64,000 nt of DNA, taken from Lama guanicoe (lineage: Eukaryota). The position numbers and the translations under genes are program-made. Of the stretch, positions 1-53,786 are shown piece after piece; within the stretch, counting starts at the first letter, position 1; every line of letters begins with the position of its first letter. The stretch is taken from the NCBI GenBank assembly GCA_013239625.1, contig MU053629.1, positions 1,391,567 to 1,455,566 on the forward strand. Reading direction: 5' to 3'. The notes below the pieces were generated by a model. It worked only from the letters and a program-made list of their open reading frames with translations. It had not been told where the DNA came from and did no database searches.

Positions 1-702
1 AAATTTCTCAGAAGTTGGACACGTTCAAAGGAGAAAATGGAAGTTGTATTCCTGTGAGAGAAGGGGCGATCGGATATAGAGGGACAGCAGGGAGGATGCA
101 GACAGCAGGTTTAGTGCACACTGCTTCTCAAGAGACAAGAGGACATGCAGTAGAGAATTCCTGTTGGAACTGGGAGACTCCTGAATCAAAGCGGTGACGA
201 AAAAATCTGGCTTTCAGATTTGGCTTTGAGAGTCATTGGTATAAACTTGAATGTTGATCCTTGAGTCCAGATGAACTCTCTGAGGCAGAGATGAGCAGAT
301 GGTCACACACTGAGGTCTGGGAAGTGCTCCTAGTGAGGGCTAAGAAGGAAAAATGCAGGAGACGGAGAAAGAGATTCTGTTCCTTATTTTAAGTTTTTTA
401 AAATGAACATTCTTAACTAATTGGTTTGTAACCTACCCATTGCTTTATTCTACAAGTATGACAGTACTTGGCACACTCAGAGTTCACTATGTGTTAAAAA
501 ACTAGTTTTGTCAGTAATTACTGCTGTTTATGTGGGTTTTTGAGATGCTATTACTTAACTCTCAGACTTAGTTCAGAAGAGACCACACCCTTTTTATGTC
601 TTCATTTTTTTATTATGAATTTTAGACAATTGAACATTGTGTATTGAAATACTAGCCTCTCACTGAATGCCAAGAGTCCCATCATCCCTTGCTCTTTTCC
701 AG

Positions 703-816
703 GTCTTTGGTGGAAGAGTTTAGAAAGACACTGTGTGCTTTATGGCAAGGTAGCCAGACTGCATTCAGCCCAGAGTCCTTATTTTACGTTGTTTGGAAGA
801 TTATGCCGAATTTTAG
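703..816 (+). CDS. USP3: USP3 coding exon (approx. human exon 8); the gene's 5' part lies upstream of the window
   Basis: ttttccag acceptor and AG|gtaagt donor; translates (V)SLVEEFRKTLCALWQGSQTAFSPESLFYVVWKIMPNF(R), recognised as the USP3 catalytic domain. Confidence 0.96.
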
Positions 817-958
817 GTAAGTATTATTTAATGAAGGCTATTTGAAATATTAATACTAGTCCTTACCCTGTTCCTGAGACGATTTTCAACAAAGTGGTGG
901 TATTCTAAACAATAAAGGCTAGTATTTGTTGGTTTTTTTTTGGGGGGTGGGTTGGACC

Positions 959-3900
959 TTTTTTTAAAAAACATTTTATTATTGAGTTATGGTCATTTTA
1001 CAATGTTGTGTCAAATTCCAGTGTAGAGCACAATTTTTCAGTTACACATGAACATGCATATATTCATTGTCGCATTTTTTCTCTGTGAGCTACAAGATCT
1101 TGTATATATTTCCCTGTGCTACACAGTACAATCTTGTTTATCTGTTCTACATTTTGAAATCCCAGTCTGTCCCTTCCCACCCCCCACCCCCTTGGCAACC
1201 CACAAGTTTATATTCTATGTCTATGAGTCTGTTTCTGTTTTGTATTTATGTTTGTTTTGTTTTGTTTTGTTTTTAAGATTCCACATATGAGCGATCTCAT
1301 ATGGTATTTTTCTTTCTCTTTCTGGCTTACTTCACTTAGAATGACATTCTCCAGGAGCATCCATGTTGCTGCAAATGGTGTTATATTGTCAGTTTTTATG
1401 GCTGAATAGTATTCCATTGTATAAATATACCACTTCTTCTTTATCCAGTCATCTGTTGATGGACATTTAGGCTGTTTGCATGTCTTGGCTATTGTAAATA
1501 GTGCTGCTATGAACATTGGGGTGCAGGTGCCATTTTGAAGTAGGGTTCCTTCTGGATATATGCCCAGGAGCGGGATTCCTGGGTCATATGGTAAATCTAT
1601 TCCTAGTTTTTTGAGGAATCTCCATACTATTTTCCACAGTGGCTGCACCAAACTGCATTCCCACCAGCAGTGTAGGAGGATTCTCTTTTCTCCACAGCCT
1701 CTCTAGCATTTGTCATTTGTGGACTTTTGAATGATGGCCATTCTAGCTGGTGTGAGGTGATACCTCCTTGTAGTTTTGATTTGCATTTCTCTGATAATGA
1801 GTGGTACTGAGTATTTTTTCATGTGCCTATTGATCATTTGTATTTCTTCCTTGGAGAATTGCTTGTTTAGGCCTTCTGCCCATTTTTGGATTGGGTTGTT
1901 TTTTTCTTATTAAGTCATATGAACTGCTTATATATTCTGGAGGTCGAGCCTTTGTCGGTTTCATTTGCAAAAATTGTCTCCCATTCCTTAGGTTGTCGTT
2001 TTATTCTACTTCTGGTTTCCTTTGCTGTGCAGAAGTTTGTAAGTTTCATAAGGTCCCATTTATTTATTCTTGCTTTTATTTCTATTGCTTGGGTAGACTG
2101 CCCCAGGAGAACATTTTTGAGATGTATGTCAGATAATGTTTTGCATATATTTTCTTCTAGGAGGCTTATTGTATCTTGTCTTATGTTTAAGTCTTTGATC
2201 CATTTTGAGTTTATTTTTGTGTATGGTGTAAGGGAGTGTTCTAGCTTCACTGATTTACATGCTGCTGTCCAGTTTTCCCAACACCATTTGCTGAAGAGAT
2301 TGTCATTATTCTACTGTATATTCTTGCCTCCTTTGTTGAAGATTAGTTTACCAAAAGTTTGTGGGTTCATTTCTGGGCTCTCTGTTCTGTTCCATTGGTC
2401 CATATGTCTGTTTTTGTACCAATACCATGCTGTCTTGATGAATGTATCTCTGTAGTATTGTCTGAAGTCTGGAAGAGTTATTCCTCCAGCCTCTTTCTTT
2501 TTCTTCAGTAATGCTTTGGCAATTCTAGGTCTTTTGTGGTTCCATATAAATTTTATTATGATTTGTTCCAGTTCTGTGAAATATGTCCTGGGTAATTTGA
2601 TAGGGATTGCATTAAATCTGTGGATTGCCTTGGGCAGTGTAACCATTTTAACAATATTGATTCTTCCAATCTAGGAGTATGGGATATCTTTCCATTTTTT
2701 TAGGTCTTCTTTAATTTCCTTAATGTTTTATAGTTTTCCATGTATAAATCTTTCACCTCTTTGGTTAGTTTTATTCGTAGGTATTTTATTACTTTGGGTG
2801 CTATTTTAAAGGGGATTGTTTCTTTACTTGTTCCATTGATTCATCATTAGTGTAAAGAAATGCAACTGATTTTTGTACATTAATCTTGTAACCTGCTACC
2901 TTGCTGAATTCTTTGATTATATCTAGTAGTTTTTGTGTGGACCTTTTAGGGTTTTCTATATATAGTATCACGTCATCTGCATATAGTGACACTTTGACCT
3001 CTTCTTTTCCAATTTGGATCCCTTTTATTTCTCTCTCTTGCCTGACTGCTGTGGCTAGGTCTCCCAAGACTATGCTGAATAGGAGTGGTGATAGTGGGCA
3101 GCCTTGTCTTGTCCCAGATTTTAGTGGGAAGCTTTTGAGTTTTTCACCGTTGAGAACTATGCTGGCTGTAGGTTTGTCATATATAGCTTTTATTATGTTG
3201 AGATATGTTCCCTCTATACCCACTTTGGTGAGAGTTTATCATAAATGGGTGTTGAATTTTATCAAGTACTTTTTCTGCATCTATTGAGATGATCATGTGG
3301 TTTCTGTCCTTTCTCTTGTTGATGTGATGTATTACACTGATTGATTTGCATACGTTGAACCACCCTTGTGTCCCTGGGATGAACCCCACTTGATCATGAT
3401 GTATAATCTTTTTTATGTGCTGTTGGATTCTATTTGCGAATATTTTGGTGAGGATTTTGCATCTATGTTCATCAGTGATATTGGCCTATAATTCTCTTTT
3501 TTGGTAGTGTCTTTGCCTGGTTTTGGTATCAGGGTGATGGTGGCCTCATAAAATGAGTTTGGGAATATTCCCTCCTTTTCAATCTTCTGGAAGAGTTTGA
3601 GAAGGACTGGTATGAGTTCTTCTTTGTATTTTTGGTAGAATTCCCTGGTGAAGCCGTCTGGTGCTGGACTTTTATTTGTAGGGAGGTTTTTTATTGCTAA
3701 TTCGATTTCATTTCTAGTGATCGGTTTGTTCAAGTGGTCAGTTTCTTCTTGATTCAGTCTTGATGGACTGTATGTTTCCAGAAACTTGTCCATCTCCTCT
3801 AGGTTATCCATTTTGGTTCTATATAGTTTTTCATAATATTCTCATATGATATTCTGTATTTCTATGTTATTTGTTGTAATTTCTCCATTTTCCTTTCTTA

Positions 3901-4222
3901 TTTTGCTTATTTGTGCTATTTTTAATTTGTGAGTTTCATCAGAGGTTTGTCAATTTTATTTCCTCTTTCCAAAAACCAGCTTTTTGTTTGATTTTTTCGA
4001 TTGTTTTTTTTTAATCTCTATTTCCTCCCTGATCTTTATTATTTGCTTCCTTCTGCTGCTTTTTGGGGTTTTTTTTTGCTCTTCTTTTTCTAATTCTTTT
4101 AGCTGGTGGGTTAGATTGTTTATTTGAGATTGTTCTTTTTTCTTGAGGAAGGCCTGTATCGCTATAAACTTCCCTCTTAGCACTGCCTTTGCTGTGTCCC
4201 ATAAATTTTGTGTGGTTGTGTG
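959..4222 (-). mobile_element. 5'-truncated, relatively young LINE-1 (ORF2 RT and C-terminus plus 3' UTR), antisense to USP3
   Basis: Minus-strand ORF2 fragments ([24 protein letters not shown]-type C-terminal region [12 protein letters not shown]) broken by stops and frameshifts; 3' UTR and short A tail at the left end. Confidence 0.95.
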
Positions 4223-6279
4223 TTGATTTTTTAAAAGGAGAAGAGCAGAAGTTCAATATATTCGACTAGATAGATGAATGTGTTTGTATAAATAATAGAT
4301 AGACCTTAGAAATGTCTTTAACAAGAGGGTAGGGCATTTTGTTGTTATAAAAACAAAGCCCTTGTAAATAATTTATGTGCCTTTGAAAAACAAAGTAGAC
4401 AAATTTTCCTTGATTCTTTCAAAATCTAAGCAATAATTATGATCATACACTGTATTGTTATTTGAACTTAAAAAAAATTCCAAATGTAGTCAGTAGGAAA
4501 CTATGGTATTGTATTCACTGTTCTGGATTCTGAAGACCTTAGAAGACTAGTGAAGTCCTTTGGGATTCACTTTCCAGAAGATAACACAATGACCAGGGTC
4601 ACCTAATGTGGCTGTAAAGTCACTGTGTTTTCCACATTCTCTGTCTAGTCTTACGTGAGTAGAGAGCCATCCCTGCTGTCAGAGGATGCACCCTCTTGCC
4701 CTAGGTTGGTCATCCCTGTGGGGAATCAGGTGTCAGCAGATTTGGGGCCCTGCAGGTGTTTGACAACAGCCTTTGCCACCTTCTGCTGATTTTACCCTTG
4801 TGAAGCAAGTCGTGGTTCTTCCTAGTCATGGTTGTGGCGCCTAAAGTACATCTCTCTGCTTCTTTTTTGAAACAGCATGCTGTAGTGAGACAGCAATGTA
4901 TCTGGCTCTATTGTCTAACAGTGGTTTAGACATATTGATAGTTTGGAGAAGTGTTTAAAGGGTAACAACTTCAAAGGACTATAATTTGTTGCCTTACTGA
5001 AGAGTCTAGCCTTGAGGATCAGATGTAATTGACTCTCATTACCCTGGTCTTTGTTGTGAAAGAAACTTCTTTTATGTTTGATGTCATTTAAATCCCCTCT
5101 CAGGCGAGACTAATTTTGTAAGAACTTCAGAATTTCTTGACTCTAAATAGGAAAGGTAGAAATAACTGTTAAGTTACCATTGATCAGGCTCGGATTTAAT
5201 AGAAAATTTCTAACAGTCACCTACTCAGACTCTTGATAGGGATTTAATCTTTCCGTTTTATTATTATATAAAAATAGCTTCCATTTGGTCAGAATCAAAA
5301 CAGTTCCTAGTCTTAGAAATAGAGACTTTTCGTTGTCTAGGGAAGGTCACAAATTGAAACAGATGCCTATAACTTAACCTTTATAAAACAGCTGAGTGTT
5401 CCATGATCTTCTGTAGGTCAAAAAATGTGTTTCTAATGGTAAAGGAAACATTAGAAAATAATGTATTTTGATACAAGAGAATCATGGTGTGGTTGGATAT
5501 ACTTTTAATGTACAATGTACATTACTTGTACAAGTCCATATACTTGTATATTATTTATACAAGTCCATATACTTGTTAATGCACAGTGGCAGATTGTTTT
5601 AAAAAGGGATGGATGTGTGTTTGATGAAAATGCAAATTGATGTAACTACAAGGCCCTAGTTTTCATGATCCATTTTAGAAAATGCTTAGACATTAGGTTA
5701 TTTTGGTAAGAGAAAAAAACATTTTTATATGTGATAGAATTTGAGATGTGACCAGAAATACTAATCTTACCTTTGAGTCACGAAAAAAAAGTTGTGTTGA
5801 AAAAGTTTAAAGCACCTCCTTGGATCTCGAAAGGAACTGTTAACTTTGAATACTTTTGACTGTGAATTTTAACATTTATAATAATCTTAGAAGAAATACT
5901 TGAACATATGTTGATATTTAGTTGCTAAATAGTTTAGAAACATTTATGAAATGCTAAATGCTAAATTGACTTCTGATTTAAGTTCCATTGATTAGGCAGA
6001 TCATTTCCATAATTTATAATTCCCAGAAGAAACTTAAGGAAAAGGGGGAAAATATGTATTGAGGGAAATTCTGGTTGTAGTCCGTATTTTCAGACTTGTT
6101 TTTAAGTTGTAGAACTCTTTCTTGAAGAGACTTTAATGTGTAAACGTGGAGAAAGTGAGGAAGAAGAAGCAGGGAGCCTCCCTGGGCTCTGAGCGGCAGC
6201 CCTTCCGGGCGTGCTGCCCTCCCGCTCCGGCGGGGCCCGCGGGGCCGTACGGGGACTGACAGTTTCTGTTTGCTCCAAG

Positions 6280-6426
6280 GGGCTATCAGCAGCAGGACGC
6301 CCACGAGTTCATGCGCTACCTGCTCGACCACCTGCACTTGGAACTCCAGGGCGGTTTCAACGGGATTTCCCGTCCAGCAATTCTGCAGGAGAATTCTGCT
6401 CTGTCTGCAAGTAACAAACGTTGCAT
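6280..6426 (+). CDS. USP3: USP3 coding exon (approx. exon 9) with the QQD box
   Basis: ctccaag acceptor and AT|gtaaga donor; GYQQQDAHEFMRYLLDHLHLELQGGFNGISRPAILQENSALSASNKRC; phase fits the previous exon. Confidence 0.96.
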
Positions 6427-8639
6427 GTAAGATTTGGCTGCTTCTTGCTTTCTAGGAAGACTTCAGACATTCCTGTTGCTGTGATTGTTTGTTACATTTG
6501 TAATGGACAGCGGAGAGTGTTCCCGGACCTCTGCTGAAACTTTTGTGCACTTGGAACTTTGTGTCCAAGTGGACTAGCACATGCCTCCTGCTTCTAGACC
6601 AGAGGCATCTTGTATTTATTTGCATCTTGTGGTAGCTAGGATTGTTATTTACTATAAATTACTTTAGTTTATATACAATTTATGCACTTAAAAGTTTTCC
6701 TCCAAATGTACTGAATAGTGGGTAGGAGACAATTTTCATATACTGAAATAATTTGTTCCCTAATAACGAAGGCTTACAGTATTTTGAATGTGAATTTTCC
6801 TAAAGCCTCATTTTGGACTTATATTTGCCTAGAATATGTCTGTTTTTAGTCAAATTGAGGCATTTGTAAGTTTTCAGAATTCTTTCTTTCCTCTCTATAT
6901 GAACAAAACAGACCTTTTAGTTAGCTTTCCCAGGTACTAAGTCCCCCAAATGTACATTGAGATCAGAATGTTTGTTTTGCTTGAGGAAGGGATAGTTGAC
7001 TTGTATTTCAGCTTGGATTTTGGTTAATTGTAGTCTCCTATTGCTCAGATTTTTTTAAAAAAGTTTTATATTGACTTGTGCAGGAAAGGAGTGTGTAAGA
7101 CAGACTCCCCAAAGAAAGAGCGAAAAGAGTAAGTAATACACAGGGGAGGCTGCAGTATTACTGCCTGGCTGTCCGCAAACCGGATTTCGTGTGAGATGGG
7201 GCTTTTTCATCACAGAGCAGTCTCACAGCGACACACAGAGCAGCAGCGACCCTGGCCTTGTCAGCAGCGCCAAGAACTGCCTGCTTCTTCACATGCTTGG
7301 CCCTCCAGCTCCCTGTGGCTGAGATTCGCATTAGACTCCAGTACAGAAGGGAAGGGGCCTGTGACCTGGGGGCACTGTTCTTGCTGCCAGCACCAAGTTA
7401 CACATGGCAGTCAGTGAAAACTTCCGCTCTGTACCTGATGCTGGTGCTTCAGGCCCAGGGGAGATTAGGCTGGGTTCTATCACGGACAGTCCGTGTGAAG
7501 TGGGGGGGGGTCTTCATTATTTGACACCCAGGTGCCCTGATGGAGTGAGCGTGTGACACTCACAAGGTATTCCTTCAGTAACTAATGAGTTTTCAGTATT
7601 AACTCTTTGTAATATTTTCAAGAATCGTAGTTGTACATTCCTTTAGTGAGTTAGGAACATAAATTAATAACAGATATTCAAAATTCAGGTTTCCTTATAA
7701 TTTCTTAAATTCACTAGATACATTTCAGGATCAGGATTGTATTTGCTAAAACTACAAAATTTATTTACTTGTATAAACACATCGAACCCTACTGAAGGTG
7801 GGGGTGACAGACATATATGGCAGATGGGTTTTATGAATATGTAGAAAATCATTAGTGCCAATAAAAAGGACCTTCACAGCATAACAGCCTGTGCAGGTAG
7901 CCAGTATGTAAACACTTAGTGTTCAGTATAACAAATAGAACAGCGACTTTGAAATTGCAAATGTTGTTTTAAGTCATTGTATACCTAAACTTAATGTCAT
8001 ACACATCAGATAGCCAAGACTTGATTAATGTCTTTTTTTTCAGAGGAAGAAGTTCTACAGGAAGAAGTACATTGAGTTTAAATGTACTGTTTGTAATAAG
8101 GCAGTTTCCATTTTAATGAAAGGCAGCCGTGTATGTGAATGTCAGTATGAACGGATCAGGCCTTTTATTTCCAGTTGATTTTTTAAAAATGTGCCCCTTG
8201 TTTATGACAGGCATTAAATCTAAAACCTGAAATAGCCACTATATCCTGTAACTCCTAATGTATCCTCCCTTTTTAATTAACTAAAGCCATATATCTTATG
8301 AACAACTTTTAAGAAAAAAAGCCATTATATTTCTTCTGCCAGTAAGGAAGCCCTTTCCTAGAAGAGGAAGCAAACTTTAAAAAGAAGAGAATTGCTTGGG
8401 TAGGTTTTGTCTATCTCTGCAGTAGGTTTAACTTGGAGCAACTCACAGTACAGTTCAGTGTGCTGGAAGTGTTACTGATGGCAAGTACAGAAACCACCTC
8501 AAATTGCTGTTAAGAAAAAAGAGCAATTCACAGGCCTAAGTAACTGCAGAAGTGCCGTCACGTGTGTTAGCACACTAGGTGAGGGTATGTGTCTGCTGCA
8601 GTCTTGTTAACGAAGCACGCAAATGAAGCAGCCTCAGTA

Positions 8640-8800
8640 TCCACTAATATCGGTTCAGTTCAGAGAAGGAGCACACTGTTAGGAGCAGGTGCTCATACCA
8701 GACCAGCTGTGTGAACTTGGACCAAGTTACTTAACCTTGAACCTCAGCTTCCCGGTCTGAGAAATGGGGATAATGGTGGAATTATAATAGTGTTTTAAGT
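8640..8800. mobile_element. MIR SINE remnant
   Basis: MIR core-like 'tgtgtgaacttggaccaagttacttaacc...cctcagcttccc...gaaatgggataat'. Confidence 0.6.
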
Positions 8801-9349
8801 GAGCTTTTTAAAAGGCTTGTTGACAGTAACACCCGGCACTCCAGCTGTGAAGTGATACCTCCGTCAGTAATTACTAAATATGTATTAAATTTGTTTACCT
8901 TTTCCCCCCCAAATACAACCATCTCAAAAATCTAAAACCATCTTTGATGGAAGTTGTTGTTCAGAGTAAAGTGAGAGAGCTCCTTGAGTACTAGGAGGCT
9001 TTGCAAAGGCTCCAGTGTACAGCCCCCTCTTTCCTGAGGGTACGCTTGGGAAGAAAGGGGCCCGCCTGCCCTGAGAGCAGGCATGTGCGTGATCTGCTTG
9101 TTAGTAACGGCAAGCGCTCAGTGTTGCTCGTGGAGAAAGTGGTGAGACTGAAAGAGGGCTGGGGGGAGGCCAGGCAGTGGCTTAAACCTTTTATTTCGTA
9201 TACGTCTATTAGAGCTTTGAAGGTTTTGTGTTTTTAATACTTAAATGAATATATATGATGTATATGTCCCCCCAAAGGGAGTCACCTGTAGGAGCTCTTA
9301 GACACATTTAGGTTTTTTGCTGAGTTTCCTGTGTGGTGATTTTCTTTAG

Positions 9350-9455
9350 AAATGGAGCATCTACAGTCGTCACGGCGATATTTGGAGGCATTCTCCAAAA
9401 TGAAGTTAACTGCCTCATATGTGGGACAGAATCTAGAAACTTTGATCCATTCCTA
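9350..9455 (+). CDS. USP3: USP3 coding exon (approx. exon 10); splice donor missing at the expected position
   Basis: tttctttag acceptor; NGASTVVTAIFGGILQNEVNCLICGTESRNFDPFL followed by 'ttttacatc' instead of the required G|gt. Confidence 0.9.
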
Positions 9456-9620
9456 TTTTACATCTGGATGCATGATAGTGTATTAAAATAATAACTGTAA
9501 TGTTTCCTTTGAAAATGAAGGCAGTAAAGAGATAAATGTTAAAAAATAATTTCAAAAACTGATGTATTTTGAGTGTAGTTATAAGCTTTTAACAGTCCTC
9601 TACTTTCCTTTCTTTTTAAG

Positions 9621-9701
9621 ACCTTTCATTAGATATTCCAAGTCAGTTCAGAAGTAAGCGCTCCAAGAATCAAAAAAATGGACCAGTTTGTTCGTTACGA
9701 G
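9621..9701 (+). CDS. USP3: USP3 coding exon (approx. exon 11)
   Basis: tctttttaag acceptor and G|gtaaag donor; (D)LSLDIPSQFRSKRSKNQKNGPVCSLR. Confidence 0.95.
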
Positions 9702-10499
9702 GTAAAGATACTTTAACGGTCTAGAATTCGTTTCCCCCCTTGAGTAGCTGGACAGATTTCTAAGCTCCATCCACATGTGCTGTGTTGTTAACTGTTCTGA
9801 TGAATTTGTGTTGTAACTTAACAAAAGTGAAACCTGAGTGTCGCTTTCAAGCCAACAAAAATCGATTTCGCAAGAATGCCTGCCAGAGATTTTAGGTCAA
9901 ACTAAATATTTCTTACCTTTCTCCTCTTTATAAATACTAATTTTAAACTTAAAAGTCTATAGCAAAACTTTTTCTGATCTAGTGAAACACAGTTTATTCT
10001 CTGGATGTTCCACTAGAACACAGAGAAAGAACACTTATAAAACTTTGCCAAATTACAGTGTCATTTAATCTGTTGTATGACTAATAATTTGAGAACTCTA
10101 GTGATGATACAGCTGTTGGTTAAGCCTGAGGCCTTGCTTTTAATTGCAAGATTTTTAAAATTCACATTTACGCTGGGAGATTTTTGAACAAACGTTTTCC
10201 CTTGATGAGTGTTAACTGCTTAGTCAAGGCAAAAGACCTGCCCGTGACCAACCACTAACATGACTATGTTTTCTCTTCATTCATAAAAAGAAACTAGGAT
10301 AGAAAAAAGAAACAGGATCTAGCTTGCGTGCTCTCATTAAGCACCTCTGCACTGAAGGCAGATAACAGAATTCCTACCTTGAATTGCGTGTCCACTACAA
10401 GTAATTTTCTTTTCCTCTTCAACTGTTTTAGGAAGTTTTGTCATAATGATTAATAAACATATAATATCTTTTCTTAGCAAATAGAAGATTCTGTTGATC

Positions 10500-10680
10500 T
10501 AGAACTGCACGGTCCAGTATGACAACCGTGTGCCTATTAAAACTGAAAACTGGGCTGCCCAGTTACACTAGCCACATTTAGAGTGCTCGGTAACCACGGG
10601 CGGCTAGTGGCTGCTGTACCGATCAGCACAGACGCAGGGCGTTTCCATTGCTGCTCAGGGTTCTGTTGGACAGCGCTGCT
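10500..10680. mobile_element. MER3-like hAT-Charlie DNA transposon remnant
   Basis: 'cactagccacatttagagtgctc...gctagtggctgctgtac...gttctgttggacagcgctg' matches my recollection of MER3. Confidence 0.6.
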
Positions 10681-11449
10681 CTGGAATCAAGTTACCCTGC
10701 AAAATGTACCCGAATACCCTTTGTAGATGCTTTTCGTGTGTTCCCCACCTATCCAACAGTGTTGACTGTCTCTTTTGAACAGAAGTACAGAAGAAATTTA
10801 AGGAAGCCCCCATCCACTCCACTTCCCCCTAAAATAGTGGCTACAGTATGTGTCTCCAAAGCTCTTCTTTGGCCTATTTGAGATTAAGAAAATAGCACAA
10901 AGTAGCAAAAGTCACCACTTTCCCTTTATATTTTTGGCACATGAATATAGGCTAACTGAATCATAAAACAAAGATTTGATCATTGAGAGGGGAAGTCAGT
11001 GAAACTATATAAATATAATTGGATTGTCAGACTTGATTTTTGTTTTGTTAAAGAGCTTACTGTCAGCTTTGAAAAGTGTATGATAGGGTCTGGTAATGCT
11101 TCTTTCTCTTTTTGTTTACCACTAGTATCAATTAAGAGCTCTGTTTTTTTCTTGGACAATGCAGTGTGTGATGAATTAGAGTTGACTGATGTCCATTTCT
11201 TTACTAAATGGGGATGGAGATGTGTGATTACCTGATAAGTCTTTTGCTTTTACGTGCTTATAAGTCTACTTGGCAAAAATTTCTTGTGTGCTTTTTTGGA
11301 TCTGTAATTGTTAAGGTTAGCTTTCATTTAAAAAGCAAAGGTGATGGTGAGAAAGACCACTGGCATCTGAAATTATTTAACTTTGAAAGGATGCATAGTA
11401 AGACAGGTTAAGATAACCCCAGGTCTAAAGCCTAACAAAGGTGTATTCA

Positions 11450-13200
11450 AAAAGAAAAGAAAATGTCGCTTATTCTTACTAATATTATATAAATCAAAGA
11501 CTCCTAGATAAAATGCTAGCAAATAGAATATAGTGCTGTACTAAAGCAATGGAGACCAAGTAGGATCTATTCCAATGATGCAAGACTGATTTAATCAGTA
11601 ATGGATTTGGAATTTTATCAAAATCTATTTGGGCATTTTAATTTTTCTTCTCCCAAAAAATCATACTAATATTAGAAGAAAAAAAGTGCTGTTATTATAG
11701 AAATAGACATGGATTATCCATGTCATAACTACTAGTGGTGCACTAATGACTTTCCATTACAGTCAGGAATCTGAGTGAGGGACGAGGCACTAGATGACGA
11801 AAAGAACCAAGAATAAATACTGAAGAGGAAAGACCAAGGTATCGACACACCTAGAACGTTTCAGGAGGATCAGCTGGAAGTGGGGAGGAATGTGTCACAG
11901 TAGCTGTCTCTGGAGAGCAGGGCTGAGCAGGAGGTCTGCCTTTCCAGCCTTCAATTAAAAATTAAATGCAGATACTAATTTGGTAAATAAGTTAACATGG
12001 AGCTAAAAAGTAAAGTTTAGTCAGATGGCCAAATGGAAAATAAATAGGCAAAACAATTGCTTTCCTGTATATAGCAAAGGATCCTATTCGCAGTTGCAGT
12101 GAAAGCTCAGAGTACTTAATACAGTTAATGAGAACTATGCAAGACCCCGATGAACAAATTATAAAGCGTTACAGGACAGACAGAGCCATGGCACGTTCTT
12201 GGGTGAGAAGACCCAACATGACAGAGATGTCAGTTTTCCCCAAAATTACTCCCTAAACTTATTCTAGTTACTTAAGCATTTCTTCCATACACAGATATTC
12301 TTAAGAGAGACTAAAAAGGTTTTAAAACAAACATAATGGAGCAGGGAAGAGATGAAGCAAGTCATGGCCTAGAAGTACTAAAGCAGCAGGTGCTGGGCAG
12401 GAATGTGTAGGTCGGGATGTGTTATATGGCAAAGGAAGAATTTCAAATCAGTGGAGGAAAGAAGAAAGTAGTCAATAAATGGTATTACTGTAAATGACAA
12501 TTTATGTGGGAAACATGAATTTTGTCCCTAACTCATATCTTCCCAAAGTAGTTAGAGGTTTCGGGATTTAGTGTGAAAAATGAAACCACAGGGACATTAT
12601 AGGAAAACATCATCTTTTTGATCGTGTTGTAGGAGGGAGATCCTTCCAAGTATATCACCAAGGCCAGAAACTCATAAATTTAACTGTATAATGGTAAACG
12701 ATGCCATAAACAAAAGTACAAAAAGATGATAAACTTGAAACAAAAATTTGTAATACATATATGAAAAAGGAGGAAAAATGCATGTGCTCAATTTACATCT
12801 GAAGAAAATAAGTGTCACTTATTCAAGAAAGTGTAAGTGAAGCAAAACTGGTCAAAACGATACAGATGAATCCATCGTTAGTGAGTTTTGGGAAGTGGGC
12901 GTGCTCATACTGATGGAGTGTAGGCTGGTACAACTGTTTTCAGAGGGTGGTGGTCACCATTTTTAACAGGCGTTTTTTTTTTAGACATAGTCGTTTCACT
13001 TGTGAATGTGGACAGTAACGTATATAAAAGGTATTCATGGAAACAGTGTCCACCAGTAGGGCCCTGGTTTAGTATCTTGTGGCGTTTAAGAAAGATAAAA
13101 CTGATCAACAGCTAGGCCACAGAAAGGTAGGTGTAAAATACTGTAGAGCAAAAAACACTATCCATGGAAGTATGAACAGAAACTCCATGAATTCTACCAT
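11450..13200 (+). mobile_element. Highly degenerate ancient L1 (L1ME-like) ORF2 remnant
   Basis: Scattered ORF2-like motifs (ctagcaaatagaat, gaccaagtagg, attgctttcctgtatat, agatgtcagttttcccc) in an A-rich strand. Confidence 0.55.
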
Positions 13201-13856
13201 TTGTATAAGGGTTTTAAAAAAATATGTGCATTAAAATCCTTGAGCAGCATACGCCTTCTGTACACCATGGCACATGTATATTGTTTTTTCCCCTCATGAA
13301 ATACAGTCAAATACAAATGAAAAAGTTAAGCAGTTTCCTCAGATCCTTCACGAGAGACGTGAAGGTACGTAGAGAAAAAACAAAGCTGGGCTGAGATTTG
13401 GGTGCTGGGTGCCTAGGGGACTGTCCACTGGCCACCTGACACTTCTACATATGAGCTCTCAAGTGAGGTTCATATTCGTGATGCTGCAAAATATTTAAGT
13501 AATACATTTCAAGACCATTCAGACAGTGAAAATGGCAAGTGTCAAATCTGTGAATGTCAAGGTGTTGTATCTAGACAGTCTTCCTTTTAAAGAAGTGTTT
13601 ATGTGTATATGTTTACATCAAAGAAGGAAAAACCTTTCTGTGTGTATGGTATAACTCAGGGACAAATTAGAAGAGCATAAAGAGTAAAATAAACATCCTT
13701 TATAATCCTGTAAGGATAATTGTATGTAATAATAAAGCTTGCAGTGAAGGCCTGTGGAAGCAGATCTGTGTTCTGGGCAATGGTAAGGGGTTAAAGTCCT
13801 CCTCCTGCCCCCTTCCGTTTTGGGAGTCATAGCCACAGCAGTCAGAAGGAAAAAAA

Positions 13857-15535
13857 AAAAAAAGAAATCCAAATTGGAAACAAAGAAGTAAAGCTGTCAC
13901 TGTTTGCAAAGGACATGATGCTATACATAGAAAACCCTACAGAAGCAACATGAAAGCTACTAGAACTCATCGATGAGCTTGGTGAAGTTGCAGGATAGAA
14001 AATCTATCCTACACTTTCTATACACTACCAATGAAATAGCAGAAAAATAAATTAAGGAAACAATACCATTTAACATTGCACCAAAAATAAAATACCTAGC
14101 AATGAAGGTACCCAAGGACACAAAAGACCTGTACTCCAAAAACTGTAAGATGCTGATAAAAGAAACTGAAGGTGACATTAACAAACGGAAAGATATACCA
14201 TGTTCTTGAGTTGGAAGAATCAATATTGTTAAAATAGCCATACTACCCAAGGCAATCTATAGATTCAGTGCAATCCGTATCAAATTACCAATGACATTTT
14301 TCATAGACCTGGAACAAAAGAATGTTAAAATTTGTGTGGAAACACAAAAGACCCCAAAGAGCCAAAACCATCTTGGAAAAGAACAGAGCTGGGGGAATCA
14401 TGCTCCCTGACCTCAGACTATGCTACAAAGCTACAGCAAACAAAACGTGGCACTGGTACTGGCACAGAAACAGACACAAAATCAATGGGACAGGACAGGA
14501 AGTCCAGAAATACACGCACACACAGATGGTCAGTTCATCTACGACAAAGGAGGCAGGAACATACAAGGGAGAAAAGAGTCTTTTCAAGAGGTGGTACTGG
14601 GGAAACTGGACAGCTACATGTAAAAGACTGAAATTAGAACATTTGCTAACACGCACAAAACCAAATTCAAAATGGATTAAAAGACTTAAATGTAAGACCA
14701 GATACTACAAAACTCCTAGAGGAAAGCATGGGCAGAACATTCTTAGACATAAGTCACAGCACTGTATTTTTTGAACTAGCTCCTGCAGTAATGGAAATAA
14801 AAGCAAAAATAAACAAATGGGATCTAATTTAATTTAAAAGCTTTTGCACAGCTAAGGATACCATCAACAAAACGAAAAGACAACCTACAGAGGGGGAGAA
14901 ACTATTTGCAAATACTGCAACTGACAGGGGACTCATTTCCGATATATACAAACACAGCGCCTACATCTTAATATCAAAAAACCAAATAATCCAATCAAAA
15001 ATGGTCAGAAGACCTAAACAGACATCTCTCCAAAGCAGACAGAGATGGCCAACAAGCACATGAAAAAATGCTCAGCATCATTAATTGTTAGAGAAATGCA
15101 AATCAAAACTACAATGAGCTAGCACCTCGTATCAGCCAGAATGCTGGAGAGGGTGTGAAGAAAAAGGAACTCTTCCACACTGTGGTGGGAATGTAAATTG
15201 GTGCAGCCACTATGGAGGACAGTGTGGAGGTTTCTTAAAACACTAAAAACAGACTTACCGTATGATCTAGCAATTCCACTCCTGGGCATATACCCAGAGA
15301 AAAATATAATTCAAAAAGACACATGACATGCACCCTAATGTTCATAGCAGTGCTCTTTACAATGGCCAGGGCCTGAAAACAACCCAGATGTCCATCAACA
15401 GATGACTGGATAAAGAATAAGCAGTATATATACACAATGGAATACTACTCAGCCTAAGTGAAGTAAGCCAGAAAGAGAAAAATGCCATATCATATCACTT
15501 ATATGTGGAATCTAAAAGGACACAAATGAATACTT
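13857..15535 (+). mobile_element. L1 ORF2 3' fragment in sense orientation, with internal deletions
   Basis: ctgtttgcaaaggacatgatgctatacatagaaaaccc (FADD-like motif), KFVWKHKRP...[15 protein letters not shown]; continues to the ORF2 end. Confidence 0.92.
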
Positions 15536-18600: not shown

Positions 18601-21600
18601 TTTAAATGTGGAAAGTACTGTTTTTCTTTCCTGTATCTAACCCACCTCCTCCCCTGCTCCCCAAGGCCACATACAGCTTTTTACGTGACACAACCAGTAC
18701 TTACTGCTGGAAGTCTCATGATTTCAGCTTGAGCGATTATAAGCACCATGGTGATCAGCCTACAGGGATTTACAGGACCAGCCAGCCTGCGGGAAAGTCA
18801 GGGCTCCTTGTAGCTAGAGATGTGGAACTTGGGAGGTCCCTAAAGACAGCATCACTTCAAGTTTACTGTTTGTGTCTCGCTTCAAGAAATAAAAGGTCAA
18901 AACAGTATAACCTTTCCTAGGAACCATCCTTGACATAAAATAGCAAGTGGGCAATGTTGTATTCCTGAGATCTGTTAGGACAAAGGGCTCAAAAAAAAAG
19001 GAAAAGCCAAGGGAAGGCGCGAGCAGGATGCACACTCAGGCACTGGGACCAGGGAGCAAAGGCACATTCAGTAATGCCTGGTGGGGGGTTCCCAGCTGAA
19101 GAGGGCGACACAGGAAGATCCTGAGCTTCCCTCCTCCACAGACGCACCAACTCTACCCCTACGTATGGCGCAGCTGCCCCTGAAAAAGCTCTAAAAGCAG
19201 ACGGACCCCTGCACGTTGCCGAGGCACGCAGGTGAGGTGGAGACCGTCTCACCGCAACCCCACACCGGGAGGGAACGCAAAGCCCACAGCTTCTCCCTGA
19301 GGAAGGAAGGGTTTGAAACCCACAACAGGCACCCCAACTTTTAAAACCTGCACCTGAGAAACGAGGCCTCAAAACATCTAATTTTGAAAACCAGCAAGGC
19401 TTGTGTCCACGAAACCGGGGATGCTTAGAAATGTCTCTTAAAGGGCTCGGGCTCAGACTCAATTGCCTTAGGGCCCCCTGCAGAAGCAGCCATTTGAAAA
19501 GCAACCAAACGTTACGTGAAAGTGGTTATCTGTCCAAGCATCATCCTGAGGGGCAGAGGCCCACCGGCACGTTCTCCGGGGATGGAGGGCGGGCGCCGTC
19601 TGTGTGTTCCCTCTCCGCCTGGCTAACACCTGCAGGTGCTGCCTTGTGTGCGCGCTCACGCTTTTTTTGTCTTTGGTGGGTGCTATCCTTAAGCTCCCTC
19701 TCTATCTTTGCTCCTTCCAGCAGGCACCATCTTCAGGCTCTCCTCTGCCTGAGCACCTGTATCTCCTGGAGGGGAGCATTTACATGCATCTGATGCCCTG
19801 GTTTTTGCAGCTCCCGCCCAGGGCATGCCCCTTGATCTCCTGGTTGTGGACCAGAGGGGCTCGCATTCACTACTGGCGCCCCTGAGACTATAACAATTGA
19901 GACACAGTTCTTGGCAAATGACCATCCCCAGGGCACTGCACAGACAGCAGACTGAAATACACTCGGTCTTTCTAAAACTGCTTGTCCAAGAGCTCGGGTC
20001 TGAGGGATGGGCGTCCGGTCTAGCACATTTCTAGGGACCTACAGAGTTGCTCTCAGGGAACAGAGGCCAGTGGATGCAACCTTTGTGCTCTCCCTCTTCC
20101 TTGCTATAGCTCACCAGTATTTTCCAGAAAGGAACTTACACCCTTGTCTGGCATCCCAAATTCCACAGTTGCTGTCAAGGGACACCTTTATATCACCTGA
20201 CTCTGGGGCTTATGTTTACAGGTCCCGCAGGACTCTAACCAATGGAGAAAGCTCTTAAACAGCTATCACCCTCCAGACACAGCACGAAGCAGCAGACCTA
20301 GGGGTGCAGTCTTTCTTTGAAAGAGGCATATTAGCGTATCATCATAGCTACAGCCTGAGGCGTGGACTTCTAATTAAAGACACATCTAAAGGCTGGCTGT
20401 ACTCCTTTCCAAAGACCGTGGAGGATGGGCACTGTCTTTATTTCTCCCTCTGCCTTGCTCCACAGCTCCAGTATCTCCATGGCTTTTACCCATGTCTGGT
20501 GCCCCATTTTTTTTTTTTGTGGCTGGAGCCCATGGGATACCCTTTGGTTGCCTAGCTCTGGGGACCAGGGCAGGCTTGTGTTCCTGGATCCCACAGAACT
20601 GTAACAATTGGAGATACAGTTCTTGGCAGGCTACCACCTGCAGGTCACTGCCCATATAGCAAACACACGCCAAGTCTTCCTGTAAAAGAGACCAGTATGC
20701 TTGTCCTGGAGTTTTGGGGCATGCTTCTGCGTCAGCACTCGTCTAGGGGGCCTGAGGAGATACTCTCAGGGAACACAGGCTTGGGGACGCCCCCTTTGCA
20801 CTCTCTCTCTGCCTTGCCACAGCTCACTGGTATCTTGCAGAAAGGAGTTTATAACCTCGTCGGGAACCTTGATTTTTTGACTCTGGTGGGACAGCTAGAA
20901 ATCACAGGCTCTCGTGGCCAGTGGGGCTTGCTTGTGGTCCCACAGGACTGTATATATTTGCATACATTAAAAGCTGCTGCATGAGATTCTTCCCTTGGGA
21001 CAGTGACGTGTCTCAGCATACCTCCAACTGCTGGGAACTATTAAAAAAAACCAGGCATCTGCTTGGACAGTTACATAGGTTTGAGGGACAACCAAGAGCT
21101 ACCGCATGGTTGAACAATAAAGTTCGTCTTCTGAGTCCTTCAGGACTCGGAGAGGGGGCTGTGGTAGCAAATCCATAGAGTCAAGCAAAATGAAGAAACA
21201 GAGGGCTATGTTCCAAATGAAAAAATAAGAAAACCTCAAAAAAACCTCACCTTAATTACACAGATAAGTGGTTTACCTGATAAAAATGGTCATAAGGATG
21301 CTCACTGATCTCAGAAGAATAGATGAGCAATAGTAAGAACTTCAACACAGAGAGAAAATGTAAGTATCAAGTACCAACTTCAGCAAAGAGAAAATATAAG
21401 AGCTGAAGAATAACTGAAATGAAAAATACACTAAAGGGGATCACAAAAGATTTGATAAAGGAGAAAAAGGTATCAGTGAACTCAAAGACAGGGCAGTGGA
21501 ACTCACCCAATCAGAGCAGCAAAAGGAAAAAGTTTTAAAAAGTGAATTTAGCTTAGCGGACTTATGGGACAACATCAAGCAGACTAACATTTGCATTAGA

Positions 21601-24247: not shown

Positions 24248-24365
24248 CCGAGAAAAAGAATAAGAAACTGAATATATGTATATTCATGTATGACTGAAGC
24301 ATTGTGCTGGCCACCAGAAACTGACACAACATTGTAAACTGACTACACCTCAATAGAGAAACAAA
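24248..24365 (+). mobile_element. Short young L1 3'-end fragment nested in the older L1, with a 14-bp target-site duplication
   Basis: agagggagtacacc at 24234-24247 and 24366-24379 flanks 'gtatgactgaagcattgtgct...gacacaacattgtaaactgactacacctcaata' plus an A-rich tail. Confidence 0.85.
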
Positions 24366-25026
24366 AGAGGGAGTACACCTCAACGTAATAAAGGCCACAT
24401 ATGCCAGGTCCAAAGCCAACATCATACTCAGCGGTGAAAAGCTGAAATCCTTCCTTCCAAGATCAGAGGCAAGACAAAGATGTCCACTCAAGCCACTTGT
24501 ATTCAACATAGTGTTGGAAGTCCTAGCCAGAGCAGTTAGGCAAGAAGGTGAAACAAAAGACATCCAAATCTGAAAGGAAGAAGTAAAACTATCACTATTT
24601 GCAGCTGACATGGTATTATATATAGAAACTCCCAAAGACTGCACCAAAAAACTGTCAGAATAAAATGAATTCAGTAAAGTTGCAGGATATTAAGTCAACA
24701 TACAAAAATCTGTTACATTTCTGTGTGTTAAGAATGAACTATCAGAAAGAGAAATTAAGGAAACAGTCCCATTGACAACTGTATCAAAAAGAGTGAAACC
24801 CAGAAATCTAACCAAGTAGGTAAAAGACCTATATTCAGAAAACTACACAACATTGATTACAGAAATCGAAGGTGATACAAACAAACAGAAAGAGACCCTG
24901 TGCTCACAGGCTGGAAGAATCAGTGGGGAAAATGACCACACTGCCCGCGGCAGTCTACAGGTTTAATGCAGTCCCTGTAAAATACCAGTGGCATTATTCA
25001 CAGAACTAGAACAGATAATTCAGAAA

Positions 25027-25052
25027 CACACACACACACACTCTCTCTCTCT
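25027..25052. repeat. Compound (CA)n(CT)n microsatellite within the L1
   Basis: cacacacacacacactctctctctctc. Confidence 0.85.
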
Positions 25053-25329
25053 CAGTACCCAAAGCCATCTTGAGAAAAAAGAACAAAGCTGGAGGTCTTA
25101 TGCTCCCTGATTTCAAACAGTCATCAAAACAGTATGGTTTTGGCATAAAAAGAACAGAATAGAGAGCCCAGAAATAAACCGTACGTACATGGTCAGTTAT
25201 TTTATGACAAAGGAACCAAGAATACACAACAGGGAAAGGACAGTGTCATTTGTGTCACTTATCTGATAAGGGATTAATATCTAAAACATATAAAAAAACT
25301 CAATAGCAAAACCCCAAACAATCTGATTA

Positions 25330-25516
25330 CAGTTGACCCTTGAGCAATGAGGGTTTAGTCCATGTATAATTTATAGTTGGCCCTTCATACCCAGTCCTTT
25401 GCATCCACGGATTCAGCTCACCACAGACCATGTAATACTGCAGTTTTTACTGCTGAAAAATATCTGCACGCAAGTGGACCTGCACAGTTCAAACCTGCGT
25501 TGTTCAAGAGTCAGCG
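25330..25516. mobile_element. Tigger2a-like (TcMar-Tigger) non-autonomous DNA transposon nested in the L1
   Basis: Imperfect terminal inverted repeats cagttgacccttgagcaa ... ttgttcaagagtcagc, preceded by TA. Confidence 0.75.
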
Positions 25517-25959: not shown

Positions 25960-25980
25960 ACACACACACACACACACACA
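25960..25980. repeat. (CA)n microsatellite
   Basis: acacacacacacacacacaca. Confidence 0.9.
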
Positions 25981-27381: not shown

Positions 27382-27500
27382 ATTGTCTTCGCAGTTTTAC
27401 TGACTTAGAAGAACTTGATGAAACAGAGTTATACATGTGCCACAAGTGTAAGAAAAAACAAAAGTCCACTAAAAAGTTTTGGATTCAAAAACTACCCAAG
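27382..27500 (+). CDS. USP3: USP3 coding exon (approx. exon 12)
   Basis: ggttttag acceptor and AAG|gtaagt donor; (D)CLRSFTDLEELDETELYMCHKCKKKQKSTKKFWIQKLPK. Confidence 0.96.
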
Positions 27501-28641: not shown

Positions 28642-28755
28642 GTGCTGTGCTTACATTTGAAAAGATTTCATTGGACAGCATATTTAAGAAACAAAGTTGA
28701 CACATACGTAGAATTTCCACTGAGAGGCCTAGACATGAAATGCTACTTACTAGAG
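28642..28755 (+). CDS. USP3: USP3 coding exon (approx. exon 13)
   Basis: catccag acceptor and GAG|gtaagg donor; [38 protein letters not shown] (USP LKRF motif). Confidence 0.96.
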
Positions 28756-28912: not shown

Positions 28913-28980
28913 CCCGAGAACAGCGGCCCGGAGAGCTGCCTGTACGACCTCGCTGCCGTGGTGGTGCACCATGGCTCTGG
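28913..28980 (+). CDS. USP3: USP3 coding exon (approx. exon 14)
   Basis: ccctgcag acceptor and GG|gtgagt donor; PENSGPESCLYDLAAVVVHHGS(G), start of the His box. Confidence 0.95.
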
Positions 28981-30718: not shown

Positions 30719-30884
30719 AGTCGGTTCTGGACATTACACGGCATATGCAACTCACGAAGGCCGCTGGTTCCATTTCAATGACAGTACTGTAACGCTGACC
30801 GATGAAGACACCGTAGTGAAGGCCAAGGCCTACATCCTTTTTTACGTGGAACGCCAGGCTAAAGCTGGATCGGATAAACTTTAA
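30719..30884 (+). CDS. USP3: USP3 last coding exon, with catalytic His and Asp and the stop codon
   Basis: ccttgcag acceptor; [54 protein letters not shown]; His codon 30732-30734, Asp codon 30780-30782, TAA 30882-30884. Confidence 0.97.
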
Positions 30885-36689: not shown

Positions 36690-36772
36690 CCACCAGCCCA
36701 GAGCTGGGGAGGAGCGGCAGGAGGTAGGTCAGGTCCCTGGGCTCCAGCCACACTCAGTGGCTGCCGCGCACC

Positions 36773-53019: not shown

Positions 53020-53109
53020 CTGCAGAATTAAAGGAAATATTTCAAACAAAGTTGTCCTCATTTCTGTTAGAAGTAAGTTATCAAACAGCTATAGCATTAG
53101 TCATTAGTT

Positions 53110-53760: not shown

Positions 53761-53786
53761 GGCAGTCACCTGCTGACTGCCCTTAC

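What the first reader, a model, noticed from the sequence alone, without database searches (positions are those of the whole stretch)
9431..9620. USP3 exon has lost its splice donor: possible loss-of-function allele, pseudogenisation or assembly error
Seen: the exon reads ...GAT CCA TTC CTA and continues 'ttttacatctgg'. The next exon starts 'AC CTT TCA' and needs a phase-1 G to form the conserved Asp of FLDLSL, followed by GT; neither the G nor the GT is present. Every other USP3 junction in the window is canonical. Read-through hits TAA at 9489-9491, and skipping the exon shifts the frame; both outcomes remove the catalytic His and Asp. Two weak in-frame cryptic donors exist: ATA|GTGTAT at 9478 (adds FYIWMHD and changes D to N) and TAT|GTGGGA at 9421 (removes 12 aa, including a CxxC cysteine). 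Inference: a small deletion removed the exon's last G and the donor. USP3 is an H2A/H2AX deubiquitinase, so a natural hypomorph or null would be notable.
Basis: partly seen in the sequence, partly recalled or inferred. Interest (0 to 1): 0.8.

Follow-up and report, generated by a model that had tools for sequence, protein, structure and literature searches.

The report
USP3 splice donor deleted, shared with paralog
One exon of the deubiquitinase gene USP3 has lost its splice donor through an 11-base deletion that is also present in a truncated duplicate of the gene, so it is either a pseudogene lesion copied into the working gene or a mix-up of the two copies during assembly.

Summary
Exon C (window 9350-9455) ends ...GATCCATTCCTA and runs straight into TTTTAC, with no G and no GT. 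All 12 acceptors examined are AG, and 10 of 11 donors are GT.

The 5' part of USP3, up to about window 13.7 kb, is segmentally duplicated in this genome:
- **C5553** is about 7% diverged and keeps the ancestral junction CTAG|GTAAGG. This shows the window lost 11 bp (TAGGTAAGGCA, with TA microhomology).
- **C1232** carries the same deletion. It is letter-identical to the window over 9384-9794 (411 bp), although the two copies differ by 4-10% in most of the region.
- **The whole locus** is a mosaic of such exchanged tracts.

The window is still the parent gene. Its last exon is single-copy in the genome, the gene order is UCH, then F-box/LRR, then HECT/RCC1, and all other exons are open and conserved.

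The lesion therefore moved between paralogs. It is either real gene conversion giving a loss-of-function allele (about 0.5) or paralog mixing in the draft assembly (about 0.35).

The deciding read test failed.

Predicted effect if real: the 165-nt intron is retained, a TAA follows at 9489-9491, and the His and Asp boxes are lost.

The parts
9350..9455 (+). USP3 exon C (106 nt; encodes NGAST...CLICGTESRNFDPFL). The acceptor TTTAG| is intact, but the 107th base (G) and the donor are missing.
9453..9456 (+). Site of the 11-bp deletion (TAGGTAAGGCA relative to copy C5553). The 2-bp TA microhomology allows it to be placed anywhere between 9453/9454 and 9455/9456.
9384..9794 (.). 411-bp tract letter-identical to the truncated paralog C1232 (29388-29798). 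It contains the deletion, the K-to-N codon (9438-9440), the short intron and exon D. 26 consecutive informative sites have window = C1232 and differ from C5553.
9456..9620 (+). 165-nt intron that now has no 5' splice site. It is predicted to be retained.
   Evidence: retention is inference
9489..9491 (+). In-frame TAA reached by read-through (adds FYIWMHDSVLK).
9421..9422 (+). Cryptic GT in phase 1 (TAT|GTGGGA). Its use would remove 12 residues, including the second Cys of CLIC. Score 66, against 78-99 for the real donors.
   Evidence: scoring matrix recalled
9478..9479 (+). Cryptic GT in phase 1 (ATA|GTGTAT). Its use would add FYIWMHD and give Asn instead of Asp. Score 53.
   Evidence: scoring matrix recalled
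9621..9701 (+). USP3 exon D ((D)LSLDIPSQFRSKRSKNQKNGPVCSLR), with canonical AG and GT.
703..816 (+). USP3 exon A, canonical junctions.
6280..6426 (+). USP3 exon B, canonical junctions. Positions 6285-6666 are letter-identical to copy C5553 (382 bp), a second exchange tract.
27382..27500 (+). USP3 exon E. It lies outside the duplicated segment and so exists only in the parent gene.
28642..28755 (+). USP3 exon F (UCH profile positions 150-184).
28913..28980 (+). USP3 exon G.
30719..30884 (+). USP3 last exon, with the His box and Asp (UCH profile 211-254) and stop TAA at 30882-30884. It is single-copy in the genome.
1..13709 (.). The part of the segmentally duplicated USP3 5' region that lies in the window. 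The duplication continues upstream of the window, and both duplicates lose homology at about 13264-13711.

Best explanation
An 11-bp deletion (TAGGTAAGGCA, bounded by a TA microhomology) removed the last base of the exon and the GTAAGG donor.

The deletion lies in a 411-bp tract in which the parent USP3 gene is letter-identical to a truncated, pseudogene-like duplicate (contig C1232). The locus around it is a patchwork of tracts exchanged between the parent and its duplicates.

I read this as non-allelic (interlocus) gene conversion between USP3 and its truncated duplicate. As a result, the parent allele in the sequenced animal carries the lesion together with two neighbouring codon changes (K to N, E to K).

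Predicted consequences (inferred, not shown):
- With no usable 5' splice site, the 165-nt intron is retained.
- Translation stops at TAA 9489-9491.
- The message is exposed to nonsense-mediated decay.
- Any protein made keeps the Cys box but lacks the His and Asp boxes, so this is a loss-of-function allele.

Whether the allele is heterozygous, polymorphic or fixed is unknown.
For: Shown by tool results:
- **Deletion.** It is absent-donor in the window and in C1232, while C5553 keeps CTAG|GTAAGGCA.
- **Identity tract.** Window and C1232 match exactly over 9384-9794 (411 bp). The longest run in 2000 permutations was 95. 26 consecutive informative sites have window = C1232 and differ from C5553.
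- **An older exchange.** The neighbouring 9024-9383 differs between window and C1232 at 15 of 360 positions, below the usual level. An intermediate divergence like this is not what an assembly collapse alone would be expected to produce.
- **Mosaic locus.** 30 of 165 200-bp windows show zero substitutions between window and C1232, and the rest spread from 0.5% to 13%. The figure is 1 of 164 for window-C5553 and 0 of 170 for C1232-C5553. There are 27 exact matches of 120 bp or more between the parent and C1232, the longest 1203 bp.
- **Copies kept apart by the assembler.** Isolated single differences are preserved inside the near-identical blocks, so the two copies were not simply merged.
- **Close markers.** Window-specific bases at 9383 and 9369 lie only 70 and 84 bp from the deletion. 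That is shorter than 100-150 bp, which I take from recall as a typical short-read length; I did not see how this assembly was made.
- **The window is the parent gene.** The last exon is single-copy. The gene order is UCH, F-box/LRR, HECT/RCC1. All other exons are open.
- **No good replacement donor.** The remaining GT sites score 40-66, against 78-99 for the 10 real donors (recalled matrix).
Against:
- USP3 is otherwise perfectly conserved here, including the four downstream catalytic exons. The lesion must therefore be very recent, or not real.
- Draft assemblies are error-prone in exactly this kind of segmental duplication. A popped indel bubble inside a tract shared by two paralogs would give the same picture, and its discarded branch would probably be too short to survive as a contig.
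- The other long exchange tracts look like parent-to-duplicate transfers, because they carry conserved exon sequence. The direction needed to import a pseudogene lesion into the parent is not the direction seen elsewhere at this locus.
Confidence: 0.5

Rival explanations
1. Assembly artefact. In the animal, the parent gene has the intact junction and only the duplicate C1232 carries the deletion. Because the two copies are almost identical here, the assembler (through a collapsed repeat node, bubble popping, gap filling or polishing with mis-mapped reads) wrote the duplicate's version into both contigs.
For: - The tract is exactly identical in the two contigs.
- The genome is a draft of 55,231 contigs with N gaps of variable length in this region.
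- Redundant leftover contigs exist. C46508 is 100% identical to part of C1232, and C32780 is a 261-bp variant of C5553.
- Every other USP3 exon and junction is intact and conserved, which is what an undamaged gene would show.
- From general experience (recalled), single lesions in conserved genes in draft assemblies are often errors.
Against: - This rival needs the two copies to differ only at the indel, and perhaps the SNP 13 bp away, within 411 bp that have no other difference.
- The assembler kept isolated single-base differences between the two copies elsewhere in near-identical blocks.
- Window-specific bases lie 70 and 84 bp from the deletion, so single reads of 100 bp or more (a typical short-read length by recall; the method of this assembly was not seen) would have phased them.
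- No contig with a parent-like intact donor exists. Two searches found only 4 places, and only C5553 has the donor. A bubble branch shorter than 200 bp might simply have been dropped, so this is weak evidence.
- The window has no N in 64 kb.
Confidence: 0.35
2. The deletion is real and arose in, or is fixed in, the parent gene, and USP3 stays functional because a cryptic in-frame donor is used. The candidates are 9478 (adds 7 residues, Asp to Asn) and 9421 (removes 12 residues). The duplicate then acquired the deletion from the parent by conversion.
For: - Both GT sites are in phase 1 and precede the TAA.
- Downstream exons remain under apparent constraint.
- The other exchange tracts look like parent-to-duplicate transfers.
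Against: - Both sites score far below all 10 real donors: 53 and 66 against 78-99 (recalled matrix).
- Either product alters the strand next to the zinc-binding Cys pair of the USP fingers. One loses a Cys of CLIC, and the other breaks the FL(D)LSL segment. That this would be damaging is inference from general knowledge of USP folds.
- Zero differences in 411 bp means the event is too young for downstream conservation to say anything about function.
Confidence: 0.08
3. The window copy is itself a dead duplicate, and the working USP3 lies elsewhere in the genome.
For: At least four copies of this exon exist in the assembly.
Against: - The last exon has one match only. The other 5 hits are 35-46% identical and lie on other contigs; I take them to be other UCH-domain (USP-family) genes, but they were not examined further.
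- Both long duplicates end at about window 13.7 kb and lack exons E to H.
- The window has the expected neighbours, F-box/LRR and HECT/RCC1 genes.
- At every site where the duplicates share a change, the window keeps the conserved residue: N in the -7.2k exon, Y in exon B, V in exon C.
Confidence: 0.02

Closest known systems
Pseudogene-templated gene conversion lesions, e.g. CYP21A2/CYP21A1P, SBDS/SBDSP1, GBA1/GBAP1 (recalled from general knowledge; no call)
   Same: A functional gene sits beside a diverged, non-functional duplicate. A short tract of perfect identity carries a defect shared with that duplicate (here a splice-site deletion plus nearby codon changes) in the functional copy, while the flanks stay diverged.
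   Different: - The transfer is not shown at read level.
- The direction of transfer is not established.
- The duplicate is a truncated 5' copy that has no stop codon of its own in the exons examined.
- Nothing is known about allele frequency or phenotype.
Collapse or mixing of segmental duplications in draft genome assemblies (recalled from general knowledge; no call)
   Same: Two contigs share an exactly identical stretch inside otherwise diverged paralogs. The genome is a fragmented draft with leftover redundant contigs.
   Different: The same assembly keeps single-base differences between the copies in other near-identical blocks. A neighbouring tract has an intermediate divergence of about 4%, which collapse alone would not be expected to produce.
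Usp3-knockout mouse (Lancini et al. 2014, as described in the abstract of PMC4731422 and passages of PMC11247611)
   Same: If the allele is real and homozygous, the animal would lack the USP3 catalytic domain, as the knockout does.
   Different: The mouse allele is engineered, and its phenotype is known: viable, shortened lifespan, more spontaneous tumours, and decline of blood stem cells. Here neither zygosity nor phenotype is known.

Membership tests
USP-type deubiquitinase (Pfam UCH, PF00443); USP3 orthologue | UCH domain with Cys box and His/Asp box | tested here: met
   4 of 7 exon translations hit PF00443: Cys-box exon E 1.2e-6, exon B 1.7e-5, exon F 5.6e-5, last exon 1.8e-10. The 3 short exons without a hit include exons C and D.
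USP-type deubiquitinase (Pfam UCH, PF00443); USP3 orthologue | Identity as USP3 rather than another USP | tested here: inconclusive
No vertebrate USP3 was available in the protein collection (0 hits). No USP3 catalytic chain is in the PDB copy, where the best matches are USP4 and USP15. It is supported by the gene order UCH, F-box/LRR, HECT/RCC1, which I recall as USP3-FBXL22-HERC1.
USP-type deubiquitinase (Pfam UCH, PF00443); USP3 orthologue | Uninterrupted coding sequence across all exons | tested here: not met
   The frame is open from the Cys-box exon to exon C and from exon D to the stop. It cannot be joined across the C/D junction, which is read with X.
Canonical GT-AG (U2-type) intron | GT at the 5' end of the intron | tested here: not met
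   The intron begins TTTTAC at 9456. The AG at 9619-9620 is present.
U12-type (AT-AC or GT-AG) intron | 5' consensus (A/G)TATCCTT and a branch site close to the 3' end (consensus recalled) | tested here: not met
   The 5' end is TTTTACAT. The ancestral state in C5553 is an ordinary GTAAGG donor.
Interlocus gene conversion between paralogs | Tract of identity much longer than chance allows, flanked by diverged sequence | tested here: met
   411-bp run against a maximum of 95 in 2000 permutations, with a mosaic of A-type and B-type site runs.
Interlocus gene conversion between paralogs | The tract exists in the organism's DNA at the acceptor locus, not only in the assembly | not testable with these tools
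Processed (retro)pseudogene | Absence of introns | tested here: not met
   All copies keep the introns and are colinear over 37 kb to more than 54 kb.

The most novel reading that the evidence does not exclude
This mammal carries a natural null allele of the H2A/H2AX deubiquitinase USP3, possibly at high frequency or fixed. It was made when a truncated USP3 duplicate exchanged a 411-bp tract with the working gene and so shared its splice-donor deletion with it. This would be a wild counterpart of the Usp3-knockout mouse, and it would show that this duplication family actively endangers its parent gene.
Probability: 0.15. Interest if true: 0.65.

Novelty: new member of a known kind. Interest (0 to 1): 0.4.

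Why it matters
**If the allele is real.** It is a natural loss-of-function allele of a genome-stability gene. Its engineered loss in mice gives more spontaneous tumours, a shorter life and failing blood stem cells (PMC4731422 abstract; PMC11247611 passages). The mechanism would be the same one that causes several human recessive diseases. The animal or population carrying it would be a natural model.

**If it is an artefact.** It is a concrete warning for gene-loss screens. A single clean-looking splice-site deletion in a conserved gene can come from paralog mixing, and the duplicates reveal it.

**Either way.** This genome holds a previously unnoticed family of partial USP3 duplications with frequent sequence exchange. 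Any annotation or variant calling at this locus has to take that into account.

Tried and rejected
- **Read evidence.** The look-up of sequencing runs listed 24 runs. Nothing was laid, so these shares say nothing about the junction.
- **Reference proteins.** The search for homologous proteins with the exon, set to longer proteins, gave 0 hits. The PDB search with the exon gave 0 hits. The PDB search with the last exon found only other USPs. I therefore had no orthologue to align, and polarity of changes relies on the paralogs and on recall of the human protein.
- **U12-type or other non-canonical intron.** Rejected (the ancestral donor is an ordinary one).
- **Window copy as the pseudogene.** Rejected.
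- **Inferring the assembler's k-mer size from C32780.** The right end has 61 identical bases but the left end has 159, so this was inconclusive.
- **Sampling 200 kb more of the scaffold for its gap pattern.** Not pursued.
- **Earlier notes of this scan.** Nothing near the window, no look-alike windows, and one unrelated bacterial note for 'USP3'.
- **Literature.** A search for 'USP3' plus 'segmental duplication' listed 10 of 40 papers, none about a USP3 duplication in a non-human mammal judging from titles and abstract starts. I make no claim beyond that one search.

Full report
**1. The observation**

The window carries the 3' two-thirds of a UCH-domain deubiquitinase gene on the + strand. 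I mapped eight exons in the window:
- A 703-816
- B 6280-6426
- C 9350-9455
- D 9621-9701
- E 27382-27500
- F 28642-28755
- G 28913-28980
- H 30719-30884, with TAA at 30882-30884

Four more exons lie in the 40 kb upstream, which I fetched as L024-L027.

Exon C reads ...TCTAGAAACTTTGATCCATTCCTA and is followed directly by TTTTACATCTGG. There is no G to complete the codon with the AC that opens exon D, and no GT.

All 12 acceptors examined are AG. 10 of the 11 donors are GT, and exon C is the exception.

Read-through adds FYIWMHDSVLK and stops at TAA 9489-9491. The ancestral exon would be 107 nt, so skipping it shifts the frame.

A Shapiro-Senapathy-type score, using a matrix I recalled from memory, gives:
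- 66 and 53 for the two cryptic sites
- 78-99 for the 10 real donors
- 91 for the ancestral donor

**2. The gene and the locus**

Pfam's UCH model (PF00443) matches 4 of 7 exon translations. These include the Cys-box exon and the last exon, which covers profile positions 211-254 with the His box and Asp.

Spliced by coordinates, the frame is open from the Cys-box exon through exon C, and again from exon D to the stop. X stands at the break.

Downstream lie an F-box plus LRR gene on the + strand (36.7-40.4 kb) and a HECT plus RCC1 gene on the - strand (46.7-61.8 kb). I recall this order as USP3-FBXL22-HERC1.

The name USP3 could not be verified with a tool. The protein collection returned no vertebrate USP3, and the PDB copy holds no USP3 catalytic chain.

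**3. USP3 is partly duplicated in this genome**

A search of the window's own genome (2.05 Gb, 55,231 contigs) with window 9300-9720 found four places:
- the window itself
- C1232, 99% identical
- C5553, 87% identical
- C32780, a 261-bp contig, 92% identical

BLAST of the fetched contigs gave these relations:
- **C1232** (76.8 kb) is colinear with the parent from window -23.2 kb to +13.7 kb.
- **C5553** (101.9 kb) is colinear from beyond -40 kb to +13.7 kb.
- **Common end.** Both lose homology at the same place, about 13264-13711.
- **Shared tail.** The two duplicates remain colinear with each other for about 23 kb beyond that point, so they descend from one composite duplicated unit.
- **Further copies of the tail.** The tail has copies at 83-85% identity on three other contigs.

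The duplicates keep their introns and lack exons E to H. The last exon is single-copy in the genome: the other 5 hits are 35-46% identical and lie on other contigs, and I take them to be other USP-family genes without having examined them. The window is therefore the only full-length USP3 locus.

**4. What happened at the junction**

C5553 reads ...GATCCATTCCTAG|GTAAGGCATATTTTGC. The window and C1232 read ...GATCCATTCC-----------TATTTTAC.

The lesion is thus an 11-bp deletion (TAGGTAAGGCA), bounded by a 2-bp TA repeat. It removed the last exon base and the donor.

C5553 is itself a dead copy. It has TGA in place of AGA in this exon, a 5-bp deletion of the acceptor, and many amino-acid changes.

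C1232 has several amino-acid changes but no stop in the exons examined. Apart from the donor deletion it shares with the window, the splice sites of those exons are intact.

C32780 is a near-copy of C5553, with 3 differences in 261 bp. It ends 19 bp before the deletion site, so it says nothing about the donor. A search with the intact-donor version found it only in C5553.

**5. The deletion sits in an exchange tract**

I classified 761 variable events between 4216 and 11020.
- **Core tract, 9384 to 9772.** 26 consecutive events have window = C1232 and differ from C5553. The exact match runs 9384-9794, 411 bp. In 2000 permutations of the differing columns, the longest run was 95.
- **To the left, 9024-9383.** Window and C1232 differ at 15 of 360 positions, which is lower than the usual level. 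This looks like an older exchange.
- **Window versus C5553.** Over 6285-6666 (382 bp, including most of exon B) the window is identical to C5553 instead.
- **Upstream.** The parent and C1232 share exact blocks of up to 1203 bp between -15.7 kb and +0.3 kb.

In 200-bp windows, the counts with no substitution are:

| Pair | Windows with zero substitutions | Spread or median |
|---|---|---|
| window vs C1232 | 30 of 165 | rest spread from 0.5% to 13% |
| window vs C5553 | 1 of 164 | median 7.0% |
| C1232 vs C5553 | 0 of 170 | median 7.7% |

The locus is a mosaic, and the lesion travelled with a tract shared by the parent and C1232. The tract also carries two derived codon changes, by comparison with C5553 and with my recall of the human protein:
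- AAC (Asn) where C5553 has AAG (Lys), 13 bp from the deletion
- AAA (Lys) where C5553 has GAA (Glu), in exon D

**6. Real conversion or assembly mixing?**

*For a real event*
- The intermediate-divergence tract next door is not what a collapse would be expected to produce.
- The assembler preserved isolated single-base differences between the two copies inside near-identical blocks.
- Window-specific bases at 9369 and 9383 are only 84 and 70 bp from the deletion. Reads of 100 bp or more would link them; that is a typical short-read length by my recall, and I did not see how this assembly was made.
- The window is free of N over 64 kb.

*For an artefact*
- The identity is exact.
- The assembly is a fragmented draft with redundant leftover contigs.
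- The region has N gaps of variable length.
- Every other part of the gene is intact and conserved.
- The other long tracts look like parent-to-duplicate transfers, because they carry conserved exon sequence.
- An indel bubble inside a tract shared by two loci could have been resolved the same way in both contigs. Its discarded branch would probably be too short to be kept.

The decisive test was to lay DNA and RNA reads on the junction.
- The look-up of sequencing runs listed suitable runs.

My estimates are:
- about 0.5 for a real conversion-borne loss-of-function allele
- about 0.35 for assembly mixing
- about 0.08 for a real deletion rescued by a cryptic donor
- about 0.02 for the window not being the functional gene

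**7. Mechanism if real (inferred)**

The intron is only 165 nt and its 3' splice site is intact. Without a 5' splice site, exon C, the intron and exon D would be recognised as one 352-nt exon.

That exon contains TAA at 9489-9491, far upstream of the last exon junction. By the general rule for premature stops, the message should be subject to nonsense-mediated decay.

Any protein made would keep the zinc-finger and the Cys box but lose the His and Asp boxes, which lie in exons G and H.

Use of 9421 or 9478 would keep the frame. It would, however, delete a Cys of the CLIC pair or insert seven residues before LSLDIP.

**8. Comparison with what is known**

The pattern matches pseudogene-templated conversion lesions known from human disease genes such as CYP21A2, SBDS and GBA1. 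I cite these from recall; no call supports them. It also matches the known failure mode of draft assemblies in segmental duplications.

USP3 is described as a histone H2A deubiquitinase of the DNA-damage response. Usp3-deficient mice are viable but show (abstract of PMC4731422; passages of PMC11247611):
- more spontaneous tumours
- progressive loss of B and T cells
- declining blood stem-cell function
- a shortened lifespan

A natural null is therefore conceivable, and it would be notable.

One literature search ('USP3' with 'segmental duplication') listed 10 of 40 papers. None concerned such a duplication in a non-human mammal, judging from titles and abstract starts.

**9. Verdict**

- The new context, a partial USP3 duplication family with exchanged tracts, explains where the lesion comes from.
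- Whether the working gene of the animal really carries the deletion remains open, and a simple paralog-aware read or cDNA test would decide it.
- Interest is moderate.

Noticed in passing
window 36728-37108 and 39810-40445 (+): Two exons of an F-box plus leucine-rich-repeat gene lie directly downstream of USP3. Pfam gives F-box-like at 1.1e-5 and LRR at 3.8e-6. I recall this neighbour as FBXL22.
   Followed up: partly
window 46680-61848 (-): The 3' end of a large HECT plus RCC1-repeat gene lies on the minus strand. HECT hits reach 9.6e-25 and RCC1_2 reaches 3.2e-12. I recall it as HERC1, convergent with USP3 and the F-box gene.
   Followed up: partly
window 6285-6666: This 382-bp stretch covers most of exon B and is letter-identical to the otherwise about 7% diverged dead copy C5553. 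It is a second exchange tract. It carries conserved exon sequence, so it probably went from parent to duplicate.
   Followed up: partly
window about 938-4217: This segment of about 3.3 kb is present in the window but absent from C1232 at the colinear position, and only partly present in C5553. Pieces of it recur elsewhere in both duplicate contigs at 72-86% identity, which looks like an interspersed repeat insertion.
   Followed up: no
window about 13264-15500 and 21000-26000: The common end of both duplications (13264-13711) lies just before long open frames on the + strand, at about 13800-15500. These frames and those at about 21000-26000 look like LINE-type element fragments by eye; no family search was run. 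A repeat may have mediated the duplication breakpoint.
   Followed up: no
G000:C32780 (L004, 261 bp) and G000:C46508 (557 bp): These are small leftover contigs. C32780 differs from C5553 at 3 places in 261 bp and keeps an AG acceptor that C5553 lost, so it is a fourth copy or the other allele of C5553. C46508 is 100% identical to C1232:40597-41153.
   Followed up: partly
G000:C5183:3241073-3245072, C4240:7415819-7419164, C7703:49926-54129: The non-USP3 tail of the duplicated unit has further copies at 83-85% identity on three other contigs. The USP3 fragment was therefore captured into a wider segmental-duplication family.
   Followed up: no
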